Shown in pieces: positions 17,398 through 22,034 of a DNA stretch of 64,000 nucleotides. This DNA is from an uncultured Thermoplasmata archaeon (GTDB lineage: Archaea; Thermoplasmatota; Thermoplasmata; UBA10834). The notes under the pieces are model-generated. The model was given only the letters and a program-made list of their open reading frames with translations, did not search any database and was not told where the DNA came from. Each line of letters starts with the position of its first letter. Within the stretch, counting starts at the first letter, position 1. The translations under genes were made by a program, and so were the position numbers. Location: the NCBI GenBank assembly GCA_963719945.1, contig CAVRDX010000001.1, forward strand, positions 352,001 to 416,000, written 5' to 3'.

Positions 17398-18255
17398 ATG
17401 TTTCCAGAGCATTGCAAGGAAGTCAGCGTAAGGTCTGTGGATTTCCAGTTGACTGAGGAGAACATACTCAGGTTCCTTGGCGGTAAAAATGCATACATCC
17501 GGACGAAGTACTTCGTCTTGAACTCCGGTGATTCCTGGGCTGTAGCTGCTATAACGAAGCGAAGCGCCAACTCTGTGCTTCATCCGATAGAGTCCGTTCG
17601 AATACTGGCGCTGCCCAGTGAAACGCGATTCATCTACGATCCCTTGCTGGAGGTATTGTCCGCCACTAAGATGGGGATGATTCGTGAACAGACTGGTTCG
17701 CGTTGCGTGGTCGTGAAGGGTCGGTCCGAACACATATCCTTCTTCGTGGAAGAAGCCGCAGAACGGTTGACCGTCTTCGATGTGGTGCCGCCAGCGCCAT
17801 CGAAGCTGGTGAGCATGGTCGATCAAGTCCTTGAGTCTGAGCTCCAGGACAGGTTCGTCAAACGCGAGGTCATCGAGCTAAACCTCAACGATGTCGCTGC
17901 TGGAATCGATACTCCAATCATAATGTATCCCTGCAGGGCGTCCGGTCTCAGTTCAGATAAGGTGGTCATGTATCTCGATGAAACGCGGGAGCTGGATCGT
18001 TCAAAATTAGATGGTGTGACGCTGGTTGGGTGCAGTCTATCTGCTCGCATCTTCAAAGCCATCTATGGCAGAGAACCGAAGCTGGTCAATATCTGTCCTC
18101 GTGACCTCGCCAGACAGAGGAACATCCAGGGTCCGATGCTCGTCAAATGTTGCAAGGTCAAGGAAGGGTTCGAACGAGATGGCGATATGGTCATCGTCCC
18201 ATGGGGTACCAGGATGTCCGAGGTTGCAGACGCGCTGAGATCCGTCCTGGGTTAG
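17398..18255 (+). CDS. Hypothetical Cys-rich protein
   Basis: 285-aa ORF with PCRASG, VGCSLS, NICP and KCCK; fills the gap between flanking genes. Confidence 0.75.
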   Translation: MFPEHCKEVSVRSVDFQLTEENILRFLGGKNAYIRTKYFVLNSGDSWAVAAITKRSANSVLHPIESVRILALPSETRFIYDPLLEVLSATKMGMIREQTGSRCVVVKGRSEHISFFVEEAAERLTVFDVVPPAPSKLVSMVDQVLESELQDRFVKREVIELNLNDVAAGIDTPIIMYPCRASGLSSDKVVMYLDETRELDRSKLDGVTLVGCSLSARIFKAIYGREPKLVNICPRDLARQRNIQGPMLVKCCKVKEGFERDGDMVIVPWGTRMSEVADALRSVLG

Positions 18256-20168
18256 ATGTCCAGCTCTTCTTCTCTGAACGCGACAACTGGGCACGGGCCC
18301 AGGCATTTGCTGCAATGGGTGCACTTCTCGGCATCGATGATCGCTCTACCATCCAGGTGCAGGGCACCGAACTCGCATCTTCCGATACATATCCCGCAGC
18401 CAGTGCAATTCATCGCCTTGAACACAATCTCTTTGGTGATCAAAGCTCTTCGATCGAGTTCCTCTTCCGTTTTGCCTCTTATCATGACTGGTCCTTCACC
18501 GAATACCGTCAGGCCGCGCACCTCTACGATCTCTCCATCTGGTGATGTCGTAACTGTGCCTATCGCATTCATGAGGTTGGCGACCCTATCCATGTCTAGT
18601 CGTTTTGTGAATACACCTTCCATGCTCAATCCTTCGACACATGGGCTGTAACCTTTCGTGCTTCTGAACTCGAGGGGTGTTTCGCTCTCCTGGGTTGATT
18701 CATTCGCCTTCAGGTCGATGCCTTTCATGGACAATTCGCTCAAAATCGATTCCGGCACCTTTCGCCATCTCCATAGGTCGTATTCTCTCCATGCGTCGGG
18801 CATGCCTTTCCTCTTAGAGTATTCGTCGAGCAGCGCGTCCCATCTCCCATATTCCTTGCTTATATCCCTGACCTTCTTCAACTCGGCGAGATCCGTCGCT
18901 GGACACAAGAAACAACCTATTCTTTCCAACCCCTGGCGGTACAGGGGATTGTAGTTCGCCTTCCTCGAAAAGAGATAGATCCAGACATGGAGGGCGGTCC
19001 ATTTCTGAATCGGTGATGCGCCAAGCTGGTTCGGGGTCCAAGGATTCCTCCATATGCGTCCCTTGCCCGCCCTGAGTTCTGATTCGTAAGCACGTTGTCC
19101 TATGAATGAAAGAACACCCTTCGGGAAATTCTTCTGGATTATCCTCGTGGCCGGCCCCAGCTTGCATGTCTTGCAGCACCATCTGTAATCCTTTGCCGGA
19201 GGGCCGAAGAGCGAGACATTCCTCCAAAAAGCGTCCCCTGCTTCTTCCTTGACTATTTCCAGAGAATATTCCTCAGCGACCTCCTCGACGTTCCTCCTGG
19301 TCTCCTGGAACTCGAGTCCCGTGTCTATGAACATGAGCTTTGGTCTGATTCCAGCCTCGAGGACCAACAACAATGTCGCGAGACTATCTTTTCCGCCGCT
19401 GTAGGAAACTGCGATGGGCAGGGGATTCTCGCTCACCACCCTGCTGATGAAAGTCTTGGCCTCGCTCACTCTACGTTCCAAGACCTCTTGATTGGCAACA
19501 AGCACATCATCCCAAGTAACCTCAGCGCCTCGTGGTTCATGGGCTTCATTCGACACGACCCACCTTGTCTTGACCGCGGTTCCCTTCGTGCCTGGTCTGA
19601 GCATCTCCTCTGCAGACATCTTCGCGACGCCTACTGAGACCGGTTGTCTTCCCTTGTCCAGAACCAATACGTCGTCTCCCTGCCTGATCCCTGGGTCGCA
19701 TTCGAGAACCCCAACCGCCAATGTGCTCGCCTTTCTATTCCTGATGGGATCGAGAGCTCCGTCATCGACGATGACCCAGCTCTTTGAGATCAGTGGTGCG
19801 AGGAGTTTGGCGCTGAGCGGCTTGAGCAGGAATCTGTTCCCGTGCACTATGTCGAACCTGATTGCGCCCGCGACCTCCCCGTCAAGGATTATCTCATCCA
19901 TGCGGTCCAGGTCTGGCGCTTTGTTCAAAAGAACGATCTTTTCAGACGGTATCAGGGCATCTCCGGTTCCGGGGCCGAACTGTCGGTTCACGATCTCTCG
20001 GATGTACTGAATATCTGATTCGAAAGCGGGCCTCGCATCTCCCGGAGGAGTGATCTGGAGCCCTCTCGTATCCGAGCCGCATCTCCCACAAGACCTCTCC
20101 TCGAGTACCGGAAGGTTGCAGGCATCGCACCAGCGAAGGTGGATCTTGCCAAGTCGTATCTCTGCCAC
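18252..20168 (-). CDS. PAPS-reductase-family protein with Zn-ribbon, PUA and 2x[4Fe-4S] ferredoxin domains
   Basis: WCDACN...CGRCG, PUA region (VDDGA...LAVGV), PP-loop SYSGGKDS, RWCCKTCK, RIGCFLCP, and two C-terminal CxxCxxCxxxC motifs. Confidence 0.88.
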   Translation of the reverse strand: MAEIRLGKIHLRWCDACNLPVLEERSCGRCGSDTRGLQITPPGDARPAFESDIQYIREIVNRQFGPGTGDALIPSEKIVLLNKAPDLDRMDEIILDGEVAGAIRFDIVHGNRFLLKPLSAKLLAPLISKSWVIVDDGALDPIRNRKASTLAVGVLECDPGIRQGDDVLVLDKGRQPVSVGVAKMSAEEMLRPGTKGTAVKTRWVVSNEAHEPRGAEVTWDDVLVANQEVLERRVSEAKTFISRVVSENPLPIAVSYSGGKDSLATLLLVLEAGIRPKLMFIDTGLEFQETRRNVEEVAEEYSLEIVKEEAGDAFWRNVSLFGPPAKDYRWCCKTCKLGPATRIIQKNFPKGVLSFIGQRAYESELRAGKGRIWRNPWTPNQLGASPIQKWTALHVWIYLFSRKANYNPLYRQGLERIGCFLCPATDLAELKKVRDISKEYGRWDALLDEYSKRKGMPDAWREYDLWRWRKVPESILSELSMKGIDLKANESTQESETPLEFRSTKGYSPCVEGLSMEGVFTKRLDMDRVANLMNAIGTVTTSPDGEIVEVRGLTVFGEGPVMIRGKTEEELDRRALITKEIVFKAMNCTGCGICIGRCEFGALHLDGRAIIDAEKCTHCSKCLGPCPVVAFREEELDI

Positions 20169-20203
20169 AAGCTTCTGGAAAGTGCCTACGTATTATAGAC
20201 TTT

Positions 20204-20212
20204 CCACTCAGA
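20204..20212. repeat. Target-site duplication, left copy (CCACTCAGA)
   Basis: Identical to 21587-21595 and abuts the left TIR. Confidence 0.9.
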
Positions 20213-20236
20213 GGTTCTGTCAATCTTCGGATGGTG
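20213..20236 (+). repeat. Left terminal inverted repeat GGTTCTGTCAATCTTCGGATGGTG
   Basis: The reverse complement of 21563-21586 reads GGTTCTGTCAATAATCGGGTGGTG; the outer 12 bp are perfect. Confidence 0.9.
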
Positions 20237-20340
20237 TTGTCGATGGTGCCTTTCCAGATGACATGAATATCTCGTCGATCGCACGAGTAGCATGCATGTA
20301 GCCAGGTAGCGGATATGTTCCTATCCAGATGCTTTCTTCG

Positions 20341-21558
20341 ATGCTCCACAGAGCAGTCGTGTTCCACATTCAGGGTGAGCTACCATCTGAGGTTAGGGCG
20401 CTCATGGTAGGTTTTCGCCTGGCAGTCAACTCCGCGATCAGAGCCGGTTTGCATGCGAGAGTGACCTCCAGGAACGCCCTGGCGAAGCTGGCGTACAAAG
20501 ACTTCAGGAAGGAGCATCCGAACATGTATGCCCAGCATCTGGTATCCTCGTTCGAAGTCGCGGGTTCGATACTCAAGAACCTCCGAAGGCGTTGGGGGAA
20601 GGGTCCAATTCATCGCATTCCATATGTGCGGCGACTGATGATGAAGGCGGAGAACCAGGCATACAAGCTCGATCGAGAGAATGGCGTGGTCGACCTTCCG
20701 ATACGAGCAGGATGTCATGTGAAGCTGAGGCTCGTCCTGAGCGATTACCATCGCGTCTTTCTGAACGACAGAACTCTCTCCCTTGGTTCACTGACACTCC
20801 TATCTGACAGGGTCATAATAGTCTTCAGGAAGAGTCCACCTAAATCATACATTCCAGAGATGGCCCTGTCTCTGGATACCAATGAGCGGAGCTTGGACGG
20901 CGTGTTCCTGAGCAAAGGGGAAAGTGCGCCAGTTCAAGCAGCATATCCCGATGTCGCGATAATCCAGGCACGGCATCACGATCGACGTAAGCGTCTTCAG
21001 AAGAGGAAGGCGCACGATCGACGGACATCTAGACGGTTGTGCAACAAAGAGGGGAGGAGGGAACGCCATCGGATCGAGTACCGCATGCACCAGGTGGCCA
21101 ACGCAGTGCTCGGCTTCGCGGAGGAGCATAAATCGACGATTGTGCTCGAGGATCTGAATGGTATGATCGGGCGTAAGCGTGGCAAGTCGCTCAACAGACG
21201 TTTGAGTTCGTGGCCTCGGAGGAAGCTGCACAACATCATCGAGTACAAGGCAGCCTGGAAAGGCGTGCCAATCATCAAGGTCGATCCATACAACAGCAGC
21301 AGGAGGTGCCCGATATGTGGGAGATTGAATCATTCCCGAATGGGCGCCGAGTTCGAGTGTGAGTGCGGTTGGCGTGCGGACAGGCATGTCAACGCCGGCA
21401 TAAACCTGCTGCAGACAGCCTTCCCGGATGGGATGGCAGGGGGCTTACGGTTCAGCCCCGGCGCGTTCCAGCATGACGTGGTGATGACCCTCTACGACCC
21501 ATTCATGGGCGCACGGTCGGAGCCGAATGGGACGAGTCGATCGGTGGGGCGGTCATGA
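20341..21558 (+). CDS. tnpB: TnpB family RNA-guided endonuclease homolog (RuvC D-E-H variant)
   Basis: RuvC-I SLDTNE, RuvC-II IVLEDL, IIEYKAAWKGVPIIKVDPYNSSRRCPICG...CECG zinc finger, RuvC-III DRHVNAGINL. Start is ATG 20341 or 20329. Confidence 0.93.
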   Translation: MLHRAVVFHIQGELPSEVRALMVGFRLAVNSAIRAGLHARVTSRNALAKLAYKDFRKEHPNMYAQHLVSSFEVAGSILKNLRRRWGKGPIHRIPYVRRLMMKAENQAYKLDRENGVVDLPIRAGCHVKLRLVLSDYHRVFLNDRTLSLGSLTLLSDRVIIVFRKSPPKSYIPEMALSLDTNERSLDGVFLSKGESAPVQAAYPDVAIIQARHHDRRKRLQKRKAHDRRTSRRLCNKEGRRERHRIEYRMHQVANAVLGFAEEHKSTIVLEDLNGMIGRKRGKSLNRRLSSWPRRKLHNIIEYKAAWKGVPIIKVDPYNSSRRCPICGRLNHSRMGAEFECECGWRADRHVNAGINLLQTAFPDGMAGGLRFSPGAFQHDVVMTLYDPFMGARSEPNGTSRSVGRS

Positions 21559-21562
21559 TGAC

Positions 21563-21586
21563 CACCACCCGATTATTGACAGAACC
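21563..21586 (-). repeat. Right terminal inverted repeat
   Basis: CACCACCCGATTATTGACAGAACC, inverted copy of 20213-20236. Confidence 0.9.
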
Positions 21587-21595
21587 CCACTCAGA
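21587..21595. repeat. Target-site duplication, right copy (CCACTCAGA)
   Basis: Identical to 20204-20212. Confidence 0.9.
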
Positions 21596-21596
21596 C

Positions 21597-22010
21597 CTAC
21601 TTGAGCGCCTTGAGCTGCTTTACGACAGATTCGACGGCGTCCTTCGCCCTCTCTATCCTGTCCTCTGCCTGGAGCCTGCTCATGCCTGGGCCCGTGATGC
21701 CGAGGCCGACGGGTTTCTCGAACTCGACCGCGAGATCGGTGATTTTCCTCGCTGCTTGGCCTATGACGATCTGGTCATGTGCAGTCTCACCCTCTATGAC
21801 CGCGCCAATCGTCACGACGCCATCAATCGATTTATCCTTCAGAAGCGTCTTGATCGCCAGAGGCATATCGAAGACGCCCGGGACCATCATGATTCTGGAT
21901 ACATCTACATCCAGGAATTTCGCATGCTCCTTCGCCCTTTCAAGCATCATCTGTGTCAGGTCGAAATTGAATTCGCTGCACACGATGCCAATCTTGTACT
22001 TGCTTGCCAT
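21597..22010 (-). CDS. ribH: 6,7-dimethyl-8-ribityllumazine synthase
   Basis: IGIVCSEFN, VPGVFDMP, GAVIEGETAHD. Confidence 0.95.
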   Translation of the reverse strand: MASKYKIGIVCSEFNFDLTQMMLERAKEHAKFLDVDVSRIMMVPGVFDMPLAIKTLLKDKSIDGVVTIGAVIEGETAHDQIVIGQAARKITDLAVEFEKPVGLGITGPGMSRLQAEDRIERAKDAVESVVKQLKALK

Positions 22011-22034
22011 TTCAGAACCTCCTTCTTTCAATCG

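What the first reader, a model, noticed from the sequence alone, without database searches (positions are those of the whole stretch)
20204..21595. TnpB carried in a TIR- and TSD-bounded (DDE-type) insertion element rather than IS200/IS605/IS607
Seen: CCACTCAGA | GGTTCTGTCAATCTTCGGATGGTG ... tnpB ... CACCACCCGATTATTGACAGAACC | CCACTCAGA. That is 24-bp TIRs (21/24, outer 12 perfect) and an exact 9-bp direct repeat around 1374 bp whose only gene is tnpB. Known: IS200/IS605 (HUH Y1) and IS607 (serine recombinase) elements have no TIRs and make no TSD. GG-starting TIRs with 8-9 bp TSDs belong to DDE families (GGTTCTGT starts several IS6 members; GGnnnTG is the IS1 consensus). Inference: this is a non-autonomous element mobilised in trans by a DDE transposase that has adopted an RNA-guided nuclease, a prokaryotic parallel to Fanzor capture by DDE transposons. 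The perfect TSD suggests a recent insertion. I cannot confirm novelty without a search.
Basis: partly seen in the sequence, partly recalled or inferred. Interest (0 to 1): 0.92.

Follow-up and report, generated by a model that had tools for sequence, protein, structure and literature searches.

The report
TnpB gene inside IS6-type transposon
A 1.4-kb jumping element in an uncultured Thermoplasmata archaeon carries only the RNA-guided protein TnpB and its guide-RNA scaffold, yet has the inverted-repeat ends and 9-bp target duplication of an archaeal IS6-type (DDE) transposon; this extends a TnpB-DDE partnership first reported in 2023 to a new transposon family.

Summary
Window 20213-21586 is a 1374-bp element with 24-nt terminal inverted repeats (21/24), an exact 9-bp duplication, and tnpB as its only gene. 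The genome holds four diverged copies with different 9-bp duplications. Related Thermoplasmata MAGs hold dozens more, including 165-410-bp miniature derivatives. Six congeners have the empty site with a single 9-mer.

The ends (GGTTCTGT, a spacer, then CGGGTG) match those of archaeal IS6-like DDE_Tnp_IS240 transposons of the same class, which also make 9-bp duplications. No intact matching transposase was found in this genome. Trans-mobilisation by an IS6-type DDE transposase is therefore well supported but still inferred.

The last ~170 nt, including the right repeat, form a covariation-supported RNA structure, a likely omega-RNA. Its guide would be the duplication plus the right flank.

Insertions are strikingly asymmetric: TT lies exactly 12-11 nt outside the left end in 46 of 47 cases, and never systematically at the right end. 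This is the position a TAM would occupy.

TnpB in DDE transposons with inverted repeats, and solo copies moved in trans, were published in 2023 (IS630, ISL2, IS1031). I found no report of an IS6-type partner. Two other follow-ups in this scan reached the same reading on other copies in this genome. Verdict: new variant of a known kind.

The parts
20191..20203 (.). Target-site motif outside the element: a TATA-box-like stretch (20191-20197) and TTT (20201-20203) immediately 5' of the left duplication. It is also the likely promoter of the divergent gene that starts at 20168.
   Evidence: Flank logo: T 97% at -12 and -11, A/T-rich at -21 to -16, over 38 left ends. Nine more left ends all fit. 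Right ends show no pattern. The TATA-like stretch lies 22 nt from the GTG start at 20168 on the minus strand.
20204..20212 (.). Left copy of the 9-bp target-site duplication
   Evidence: Empty alleles with one copy.
20213..20236 (+). Left terminal inverted repeat, IS6-type: GGTTCTGT, a spacer, then a CGG(G/A)TG block
20329..21558 (+). tnpB, 409 aa. RuvC-I Asp, RuvC-II Glu and the C4 zinc finger are intact. RuvC-III reads DRHVN, with His at the canonical Asp position.
   Evidence: dN/dS 0.11-0.25 between copies.
21420..21586 (+). Conserved structured RNA, a putative omega-RNA scaffold. It overlaps the tnpB 3' end and the right TIR.
   Evidence: RNAalifold on 44 copies. 96% of cells paired against 26-45% in slid controls; 18 pairs with compensatory changes against 2-6. 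The 345-411-bp miniature elements keep this region. No Rfam match.
21563..21586 (-). Right terminal inverted repeat. Positions 8-11 pair with an upstream segment of the RNA and covary with it.
   Evidence: helix 8
21587..21595 (.). Right copy of the 9-bp target-site duplication
21587..21606 (+). Predicted guide segment of the omega-RNA: the duplication plus the right flank. Inferred, not shown.
   Evidence: Inference from the scaffold ending at the transposon boundary, and from published TnpB biology (PMC10691335, PMC13565253).
18252..20168 (-). Left neighbour: PUA plus PAPS-reductase plus 4Fe-4S gene. It is not part of the element; the element sits just upstream of its promoter.
21597..22031 (-). 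Right neighbour: ribH (lumazine synthase). Its stop codon lies 1 nt beyond the right duplication. It is not part of the element.

Best explanation
This is a non-autonomous insertion element made of a tnpB gene and its omega-RNA scaffold packed between the terminal inverted repeats of an archaeal IS6-like (DDE_Tnp_IS240) transposon.

It does not move by the single-strand Y1 route or the serine-recombinase route of IS200/IS605/IS607. It is moved in trans by an IS6-type DDE transposase. That enzyme binds the GGTTCTGT...CGGGTG ends and makes 9-bp staggered cuts at the target, in a fixed orientation next to a TATA-like ... TTN motif.

Shown: the ends, the duplications, the empty sites, many independent insertions, miniature derivatives, shared end architecture with DDE elements, a conserved RNA structure that runs through the right repeat, and purifying selection on tnpB.

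Inferred: the identity of the mobilising enzyme. Also inferred is that the RNA reads out into the flank, so that each insertion acquires a guide (duplication plus right flank) against its own empty site. The flanking TTN would then serve as the TAM, allowing TnpB to promote retention or homing.
For: Structure and repeated transposition. At least 26 insertions have duplications matching 8/9 or 9/9: full elements of 1342-1376 bp and derivatives of 165, 345-350 and 368-411 bp.

Empty alleles in G005, G010, G003, G011, G001 and G004. An independent 345-bp derivative sits in the same site in G006, 1 nt offset and in the same orientation.

IS6 link. Remnant DDE_Tnp_IS240 genes in the same genus end in GGTTCTGTCTAGCCATCGGGTG-type repeats. 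An intact 2082-bp element in G137 has a 495-aa SWIM plus DDE_Tnp_IS240 ORF, similar repeats and a perfect 9-bp duplication. Four more IS6-type elements have 9/9 duplications. The end pattern is specific: 3-18 hits per genome against 0 for the control.

Omega-RNA.

Selection on tnpB: dN/dS 0.11-0.25. This includes an immobile copy that lacks its left repeat and is shared by two species.

The architecture is conserved in TnpBs only 32-35% identical, from Nitrososphaerota.

Flank asymmetry: 46 of 47 left ends have TT at -12/-11.

Precedent: DDE-associated TnpBs with inverted terminal repeats, and solo copies moved in trans (PMC10691335).
Against: No intact IS6-type transposase with matching ends was found in this genome (87% complete, 4 contigs), nor in the complete one-contig relative G018. 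Within the genus only 86-198-aa remnants were seen.

No element carrying both tnpB and the DDE gene was found in 34 IS6 loci.

Copies within a genome are 84-95% identical, so there is no sign of very recent activity.

The classical IS6 family makes 8-bp duplications (my own knowledge of ISfinder). Harmer and Hall argue that the archaeal members are not true IS6/IS26 (PMC6807381).

RuvC-III has His where the catalytic Asp is expected, so nuclease activity is not assured.

Expression of the RNA, the guide and the TAM are untested.
Confidence: 0.8

Rival explanations
1. The TTN flank motif reflects TnpB rather than the transposase. The DDE enzyme inserts with little specificity. Only insertions that happen to have a TAM (TTN) just 5' of the duplicated 9-mer, on the side opposite the guide, can be driven to fixation by RNA-guided cleavage of empty alleles.
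For: The motif sits exactly where a TAM should be if the guide starts at the first base after the right repeat. It is strictly one-sided, which is unusual for two-fold symmetric DDE transpososomes. The 345-411-bp miniature elements keep the RNA scaffold and could use TnpB in trans.
Against: Two 165-bp derivatives that lack most of the scaffold still have TTT. IS6-type elements without tnpB also show TATA-like ... TTN at one end. This includes genomes where no TnpB of this family was found, although only about six such cases were seen. 98% compliance is high for post-insertion selection alone. Two independent insertions hit the same site 1 nt apart, which points to target choice.
Confidence: 0.2
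2. TnpB here is no longer a homing nuclease. It is an exapted RNA-guided DNA binder or regulator, or an altered nuclease, kept by the host. The IS6-type shell is merely the fossil of how it arrived.
For: RuvC-III Asp is replaced by His across the Thermoplasmata clade, and by Gln in one lineage. An immobile copy without its left repeat keeps an intact ORF under purifying selection in two species. No active transposase was found.
Against: RuvC-I Asp, RuvC-II Glu and an Asp two residues before the His are conserved. Conserved RuvC-III Asp-to-His branches are regarded as probably active (PMC10691335). Copies are multi-copy, sit at unrelated sites and have decaying members (c2 frameshifted, c4 deleted), as selfish elements do. 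Nitrososphaerota relatives with the same shell have the canonical DRDVN.
Confidence: 0.12
3. TnpB itself, which has an RNase H-fold RuvC domain, is the transposase that recognises the inverted repeats and makes the 9-bp duplication. On this view the element is autonomous.
For: No DDE transposase was found in this genome or in the complete genome G018, although both carry elements with duplications. tnpB is under purifying selection.
Against: Derivatives without tnpB have transposed many times. The same ends, the same duplication length and a similar flank motif occur on elements whose only gene is a DDE_Tnp_IS240 transposase. This includes genomes with no TnpB of this family. I know of no experimental precedent for TnpB as a transposase, and TnpB is dispensable for transposition in IS605 and IS607 (PMC13565253).
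Confidence: 0.04
4. Chance nesting: an ordinary IS605/IS607-type tnpB unit inserted into an unrelated IS6-derived miniature element, so the repeats have nothing to do with tnpB.
For: Nested insertions and abutting ends do occur among these elements.
Against: The same tnpB-in-shell architecture recurs in dozens of copies, in subfamilies about 70% identical, and in another phylum. The stop codon lies 28 nt from the terminus. The RNA structure includes the right repeat and covaries with it. No second, inner set of ends or hairpins stands out.
Confidence: 0.03

Closest known systems
DDE-transposase-associated TnpB branches (DDE-1 to DDE-6) and solo TnpBs with the same ends (Altae-Tran et al. 2023, PNAS, PMC10691335)
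   Same: tnpB lies inside a transposon with inverted terminal repeats. Its 3' end is within 250 bp of the transposon end (here 28 bp). Solo copies are inferred to be moved in trans.
   Different: The partner families named so far are IS630, ISL2 and IS1031 (PMC13565253), and in those the DDE gene lies in cis. Here the ends are archaeal IS6-like, the duplication is 9 bp, and no cis tnpB-plus-DDE element was found. Many miniature derivatives keep the RNA scaffold.
IS1341 group of IS200/IS605 (tnpB-only elements)
   Same: The only gene is tnpB. The omega-RNA-like structure overlaps the 3' end of the gene. The element is non-autonomous.
   Different: IS200/IS605 elements have no terminal inverted repeats and make no target duplication. 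They have subterminal hairpins and insert 3' of a 4-6-nt motif (PMC13565253; PMC3119063). This element has 24-nt TIRs and a 9-bp TSD.
Archaeal IS6-like insertion sequences (DDE_Tnp_IS240; ISfinder IS6 family, archaeal clades of Harmer and Hall 2019, PMC6807381)
   Same: The repeats start GG and run beyond 18 bp with the same bipartite pattern. The Thermoplasmata members examined here have the same 9-bp duplication.
   Different: This element has no transposase gene; tnpB and its RNA stand in its place. Bacterial IS6/IS26 makes 8-bp duplications (own knowledge).
Fanzor (eukaryotic TnpB homologue) inside DDE transposons
   Same: An RNA-guided RuvC nuclease is carried as a passenger in TIR/TSD transposons of DDE type.
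   Different: This case is prokaryotic. In Fanzor elements the short, specific duplication (for example TA) is read as part of the TAM (PMC13565253). Here the TAM-like TTN lies outside a variable 9-bp duplication, and that duplication would form the first 9 nt of the guide.
MITEs and PATEs
   Same: Internally deleted derivatives of 165-411 bp keep both ends and are moved in trans.
   Different: Most derivatives keep the whole putative omega-RNA scaffold. They may therefore be guide-RNA-only elements rather than plain end pairs.

Membership tests
IS200/IS605 (IS1341 group) | No terminal inverted repeats; subterminal hairpins instead | tested here: not met
   24-nt TIR, 21/24, conserved in more than 80 ends
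IS200/IS605 (IS1341 group) | No target-site duplication | tested here: not met
   Exact 9-bp duplication; at least 26 further cases; empty sites with one copy
IS200/IS605 (IS1341 group) | tnpB as the only gene, with an omega-RNA overlapping its 3' end | tested here: met
IS607 | Serine-recombinase TnpA; no TIR, no TSD | tested here: not met
   No second ORF in the element; TIR and TSD present
Archaeal IS6-like IS (as a non-autonomous derivative) | Terminal inverted repeats of the family's type (GG start, conserved G7, more than 18 bp) | tested here: met
   Same GGTTCTGT-spacer-CGGGTG pattern on DDE_Tnp_IS240 elements of the same genus and class. Pattern specificity.
Archaeal IS6-like IS (as a non-autonomous derivative) | Same target duplication length as autonomous members | tested here: met
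   9/9 duplications around five DDE_Tnp_IS240 elements: L044 and L059-L062
Archaeal IS6-like IS (as a non-autonomous derivative) | DDE_Tnp_IS240 transposase encoded in the element | tested here: not met
   Only tnpB lies inside. No PF13610 hit anywhere in this genome.
Archaeal IS6-like IS (as a non-autonomous derivative) | Mobilisation by that transposase | not testable with these tools
   Needs a transposition assay
DDE-associated TnpB (Altae-Tran 2023) | Inverted terminal repeats, with the tnpB 3' end within about 250 bp of the transposon end | tested here: met
   The stop codon at 21556-21558 is 28 nt from the terminus at 21586
DDE-associated TnpB (Altae-Tran 2023) | DDE transposase in cis in at least some members of the branch | tested here: not met
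   No tnpB within 1.5 kb of 34 IS6-type loci. None of the tnpB loci examined holds a DDE gene.
TnpB / OMEGA effector | RuvC-I Asp, RuvC-II Glu, C4 zinc finger | tested here: met
   LDTN, LEDL, CPICG...CECG are conserved; PDB alignments
TnpB / OMEGA effector | RuvC-III catalytic Asp (DRDxN or NADxN) | tested here: not met
   DRHVN: the His aligns with the catalytic Asp of solved TnpB and Cas12f chains. A published kind of rearrangement.
TnpB / OMEGA effector | RNA-guided DNA cleavage with a TAM | not testable with these tools
   Needs biochemistry.

The most novel reading that the evidence does not exclude
The IS6-type transposase and TnpB form a matched two-part system. The transposase inserts in one orientation exactly 9 bp from a TTN motif. 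As a result, every new copy automatically acquires an omega-RNA guide (duplication plus right flank) whose target in the empty allele is preceded by TTN, the TnpB TAM. A DDE transposon would thereby gain RNA-guided homing or retention in archaea, with guide-RNA-only miniature elements as hitch-hikers. The architecture is old enough to be shared by Thermoplasmatota and Nitrososphaerota.
Probability: 0.3. Interest if true: 0.8.

Novelty: new variant of a known kind. Interest (0 to 1): 0.6.

Why it matters
TnpB is the ancestor of Cas12, and its natural role is tied to how its host transposon moves. Most work concerns IS605 and IS607, where scar-free excision and a fixed target motif explain the TAM and the guide.

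This element shows a whole archaeal lineage of TnpBs living in a DDE-type shell that makes a 9-bp duplication of variable sequence. It also suggests how the TAM and guide logic can still work there: a one-sided TTN just outside the duplication, with the duplication forming the first 9 guide bases.

The finding supplies a concrete, testable pair: IS6-like transposase plus TnpB and its RNA. It flags guide-RNA-bearing miniature elements. It also means that many 'solo IS1341-type' tnpB genes in archaeal genomes may be mis-assigned to IS200/IS605.

Tried and rejected
1. Autonomous partner in this genome. An end-motif scan, a self-BLAST, PF13610 and an IS6 protein query found nothing.

2. Full-length IS6 candidate in G004 (L047 1471-2824). 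It proved to be a C-terminal transposase remnant fused to unrelated sequence.

3. The intact IS6-like 436-aa ORF in G006 (L039). No matching repeats were found.

4. Whether the left-flank motif is always the promoter of a divergent gene. The ORF-orientation tests were inconclusive: 24 outward against 9 inward at left ends, and 24 against 16 at right ends.

5. The flank motif in TnpB-free lineages. Too few IS6 copies were available.

6. More scaffold-less 165-bp derivatives. Only two exist in the 41 genomes searched.

7. IS6-type ends around Nitrososphaerota DDE genes. No clear pairs were found with a simple finder.

8. Rfam gave no match.

10. Literature on TnpB with IS6: nothing found.

11. 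I considered that differing 9-mers next to the same RHH-gene flank meant the 9-mer travels with the IS. I rejected this. The alignment shows one old orthologous insertion with neutral decay of the 9-mer.

Full report
**What is in the window.** Bases 20213-21586 form a 1374-bp unit. It is bounded by 24-nt inverted repeats (20213-20236 and 21563-21586; 21 of 24 complementary), the best inverted repeat in the region by a wide margin. An exact 9-bp direct repeat flanks it at 20204-20212 and 21587-21595. The only long ORF is 20329-21558 on the plus strand, 409 aa. It matches Pfam PF07282 (Cas12f1-like TNB domain) and solved TnpB and Cas12f chains. The element sits in a roughly 40-nt spacer between the start of a PUA/PAPS-reductase gene (18252-20168, minus strand) and the stop of ribH (21597-22031, minus strand).

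**It has transposed repeatedly.** The window is G000:C1:352001-416000. The genome holds three more copies, 84-91% identical.
- One has the duplication TCTTGAGAC.
- One is internally deleted and has ACATTCGCC.
- One lacks the left repeat.

The third copy is explained by a deletion between its left duplication (CCATGGTGC) and an 8/9-identical stretch at element positions 33-41. It is orthologous in G005. A self-BLAST shows this is the only multi-copy insertion element in the assembly.

All 11 genomes of the same genus, and 24 of 36 of the same family, have DNA matches. Across these loci I counted at least 26 insertions whose 9-bp flanks match 8/9 or 9/9. They comprise full elements of 1342-1376 bp and internally deleted derivatives of 165, 345-350 and 368-411 bp.

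The site occupied in the window is empty in six congeners (G005, G010, G003, G011, G001, G004), where a single 9-mer joins the two flanks. In G006 the same site holds an independent 345-bp derivative. It is shifted by one base, in the same orientation, with its own perfect duplication.

**Whose ends are these?** The termini read GGTTCTGT, a 7-8-nt variable spacer, then CGGGTG(G). This bipartite pattern occurs 3-18 times per related genome, against 0 for the reversed control pattern.

PF13610 (DDE_Tnp_IS240, the IS6-type catalytic domain) is not found in G000. It does occur in sister genomes.
- In five genomes of the genus, a truncated transposase gene ends a few bases from a terminus of the same pattern. 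This is one old orthologous insertion next to an RHH gene.
- In another family of the class, an intact 2082-bp element (L044 599-2680) has similar repeats and a perfect 9-bp duplication. It carries one 495-aa ORF with a SWIM zinc finger and DDE_Tnp_IS240 at 81.6 bits.
- A motif-free search for GG...CC inverted repeats found four further IS6-type elements with 9/9 duplications.

So the ends, the duplication length and the lineage all point to an archaeal IS6-like DDE transposase acting in trans.

This step remains an inference.
- No intact matching transposase was found in G000 (87% complete), nor in the complete genome G018.
- No element with tnpB and the DDE gene together was seen.
- No near-identical copies indicate current activity.

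**The RNA.** I aligned the last 180 nt of 44 diverse copies. The consensus fold has eight helices, with 96% of cells paired against 26-45% when partners are slid by 1-3 columns. Eighteen pairs show compensatory changes, against 2-6 in the slid controls.

One helix pairs a segment just upstream with positions 8-11 of the right repeat. It covaries with the repeat subfamily, TGAC against GCAAC. The structure therefore runs to within six bases of the transposon boundary, as omega-RNA scaffolds do. The 345-411-bp derivatives keep this whole region. Rfam has no match.

If transcription continues into the flank, the guide would be the 9-bp duplication plus the right flank. Its target would be the empty site. 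This part is inferred.

**An asymmetric target motif.** Over 38 left ends (full elements and derivatives), T stands at -12 and at -11 in 97% of cases. Position -10 is T or G, -13 is often C, and -21 to -16 is A/T-rich. Nine further left ends all fit. Right ends show nothing.

Read outward, the motif looks like an archaeal BRE/TATA. In the window, its TATA-like part lies 22 nt from the GTG start of the divergent gene. A general test of gene orientation was inconclusive.

TTN lies exactly where a TAM would be for a guide that starts with the duplication. I nevertheless think the transposition machinery itself chooses these sites.
- The two scaffold-less 165-bp derivatives obey the rule.
- Two independent insertions hit the same site one base apart.
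- IS6-type elements without tnpB show TATA-like ... TTN on one side, including genomes where no TnpB of this family was found. Those cases are few.

A TnpB TAM adapted to this motif, as in IS605 and IS607, is an attractive but untested idea.

**The protein.** RuvC-I (LDTN), RuvC-II (LEDL) and the C4 zinc finger are conserved. RuvC-III reads DRH(V/I)N, and the His aligns with the catalytic Asp of solved relatives. One lineage has Gln at this position. Nitrososphaerota relatives have DRDVN. Conserved Asp-to-His rearrangements of RuvC-III are published and considered probably active.

dN/dS between copies is 0.11-0.25. For the immobile copy shared by G000 and G005 it is 0.23. The protein is therefore kept functional. 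Two of the four copies in G000 are decayed.

**Breadth.** All close relatives are from uncultured Thermoplasmata and Thermoplasmatota MAGs. TnpBs only 32-35% identical, from Nitrososphaerota, carry the same kind of repeats, up to about 60 nt long. Several of them have TATA-like ... TTN flanks. The architecture is therefore old and widespread in archaea.

**What is known.** IS200/IS605 and IS607 have no inverted repeats and make no duplications (PMC13565253). Haloarchaeal IS1341-type elements also have neither (PMC3119063).

Altae-Tran et al. 2023 (PMC10691335) described six DDE-associated TnpB branches, all with inverted terminal repeats. They also described solo TnpBs with the same ends, inferred to be moved in trans. 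A 2026 review names the DDE partners as ISL2, IS630 and IS1031. I found no report of an IS6-type partner. ISfinder and the 2023 supplement could not be consulted.

Two earlier follow-ups in this scan, on other copies in this genome, reached the same reading. I repeated the tests independently here.

**Verdict.** This is a new variant of a known kind: TnpB in a DDE-type shell, with a new partner family, many RNA-bearing miniature derivatives and a striking one-sided target motif.

Noticed in passing
window 21375-21395 (tnpB codons around RuvC-III): RuvC-III reads DRHVN. The His aligns with the catalytic Asp of solved TnpB and Cas12f chains. This is conserved across the Thermoplasmata clade (Gln in one lineage). 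Nitrososphaerota relatives with the same transposon shell keep DRDVN.
   Followed up: partly
G000:C1:171965-173317 (L008 3466-4818) and its orthologue L012 in G005: This copy lost its left repeat through a deletion between its left duplication and an 8/9-identical internal stretch. Although immobile, it keeps an intact 420-aa tnpB frame in two species, with dN/dS 0.23.
   Followed up: yes
L115 1146-1490 (G006:C9), orthologous to window 20204-21595: An independent 345-bp miniature derivative occupies the same intergenic site as the window's element. It is shifted by 1 nt, in the same orientation, with a perfect 9-bp duplication. The site is an insertion hot spot.
   Followed up: yes
L044 589/599; L046 1379/1389; L051 1772/1782; L071 1453/1463: In four places, two element termini face each other with exactly 9 bp between them. 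It looks as if a second element inserted into the duplication of the first, or as a relic of an end-to-end junction. In L051 an IS6 remnant end abuts a TnpB-element-type end.
   Followed up: no
L038, L040, L047, L049, L056 (G001, G002, G004, G010, G009): A truncated IS6-type transposase remnant sits upstream of the promoter of a small ribbon-helix-helix-like gene at an orthologous site in five congeners. In three different contexts, the 9-mer next to the same type of IS6 end is CTTGGTC plus two variable bases. This is unexplained.
   Followed up: partly
L178, L179, L180, L200-L203 (Nitrososphaerota MAGs): Multi-copy tnpB elements in another archaeal phylum have the same GGTTCTGT...CGGGT termini, with repeats up to about 60 nt. 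The tnpB stop codon lies about 10-20 nt from the end.
   Followed up: partly
L039 736-2046 (G006:C12): An intact 436-aa ORF with a zinc ribbon and DDE_Tnp_IS240, only 31% identical to the remnant type. No recognisable inverted repeats surround it. It lies about 2 kb from an IS6-type end.
   Followed up: partly
G000:C1:142210-144448 and 155626-157864 (L006), outside the window: A 2.24-kb segment is duplicated at 98.75% identity, 13 kb apart, covering two ORFs of 286 and 323 aa. It is the only other sizeable repeat in the genome.
   Followed up: no
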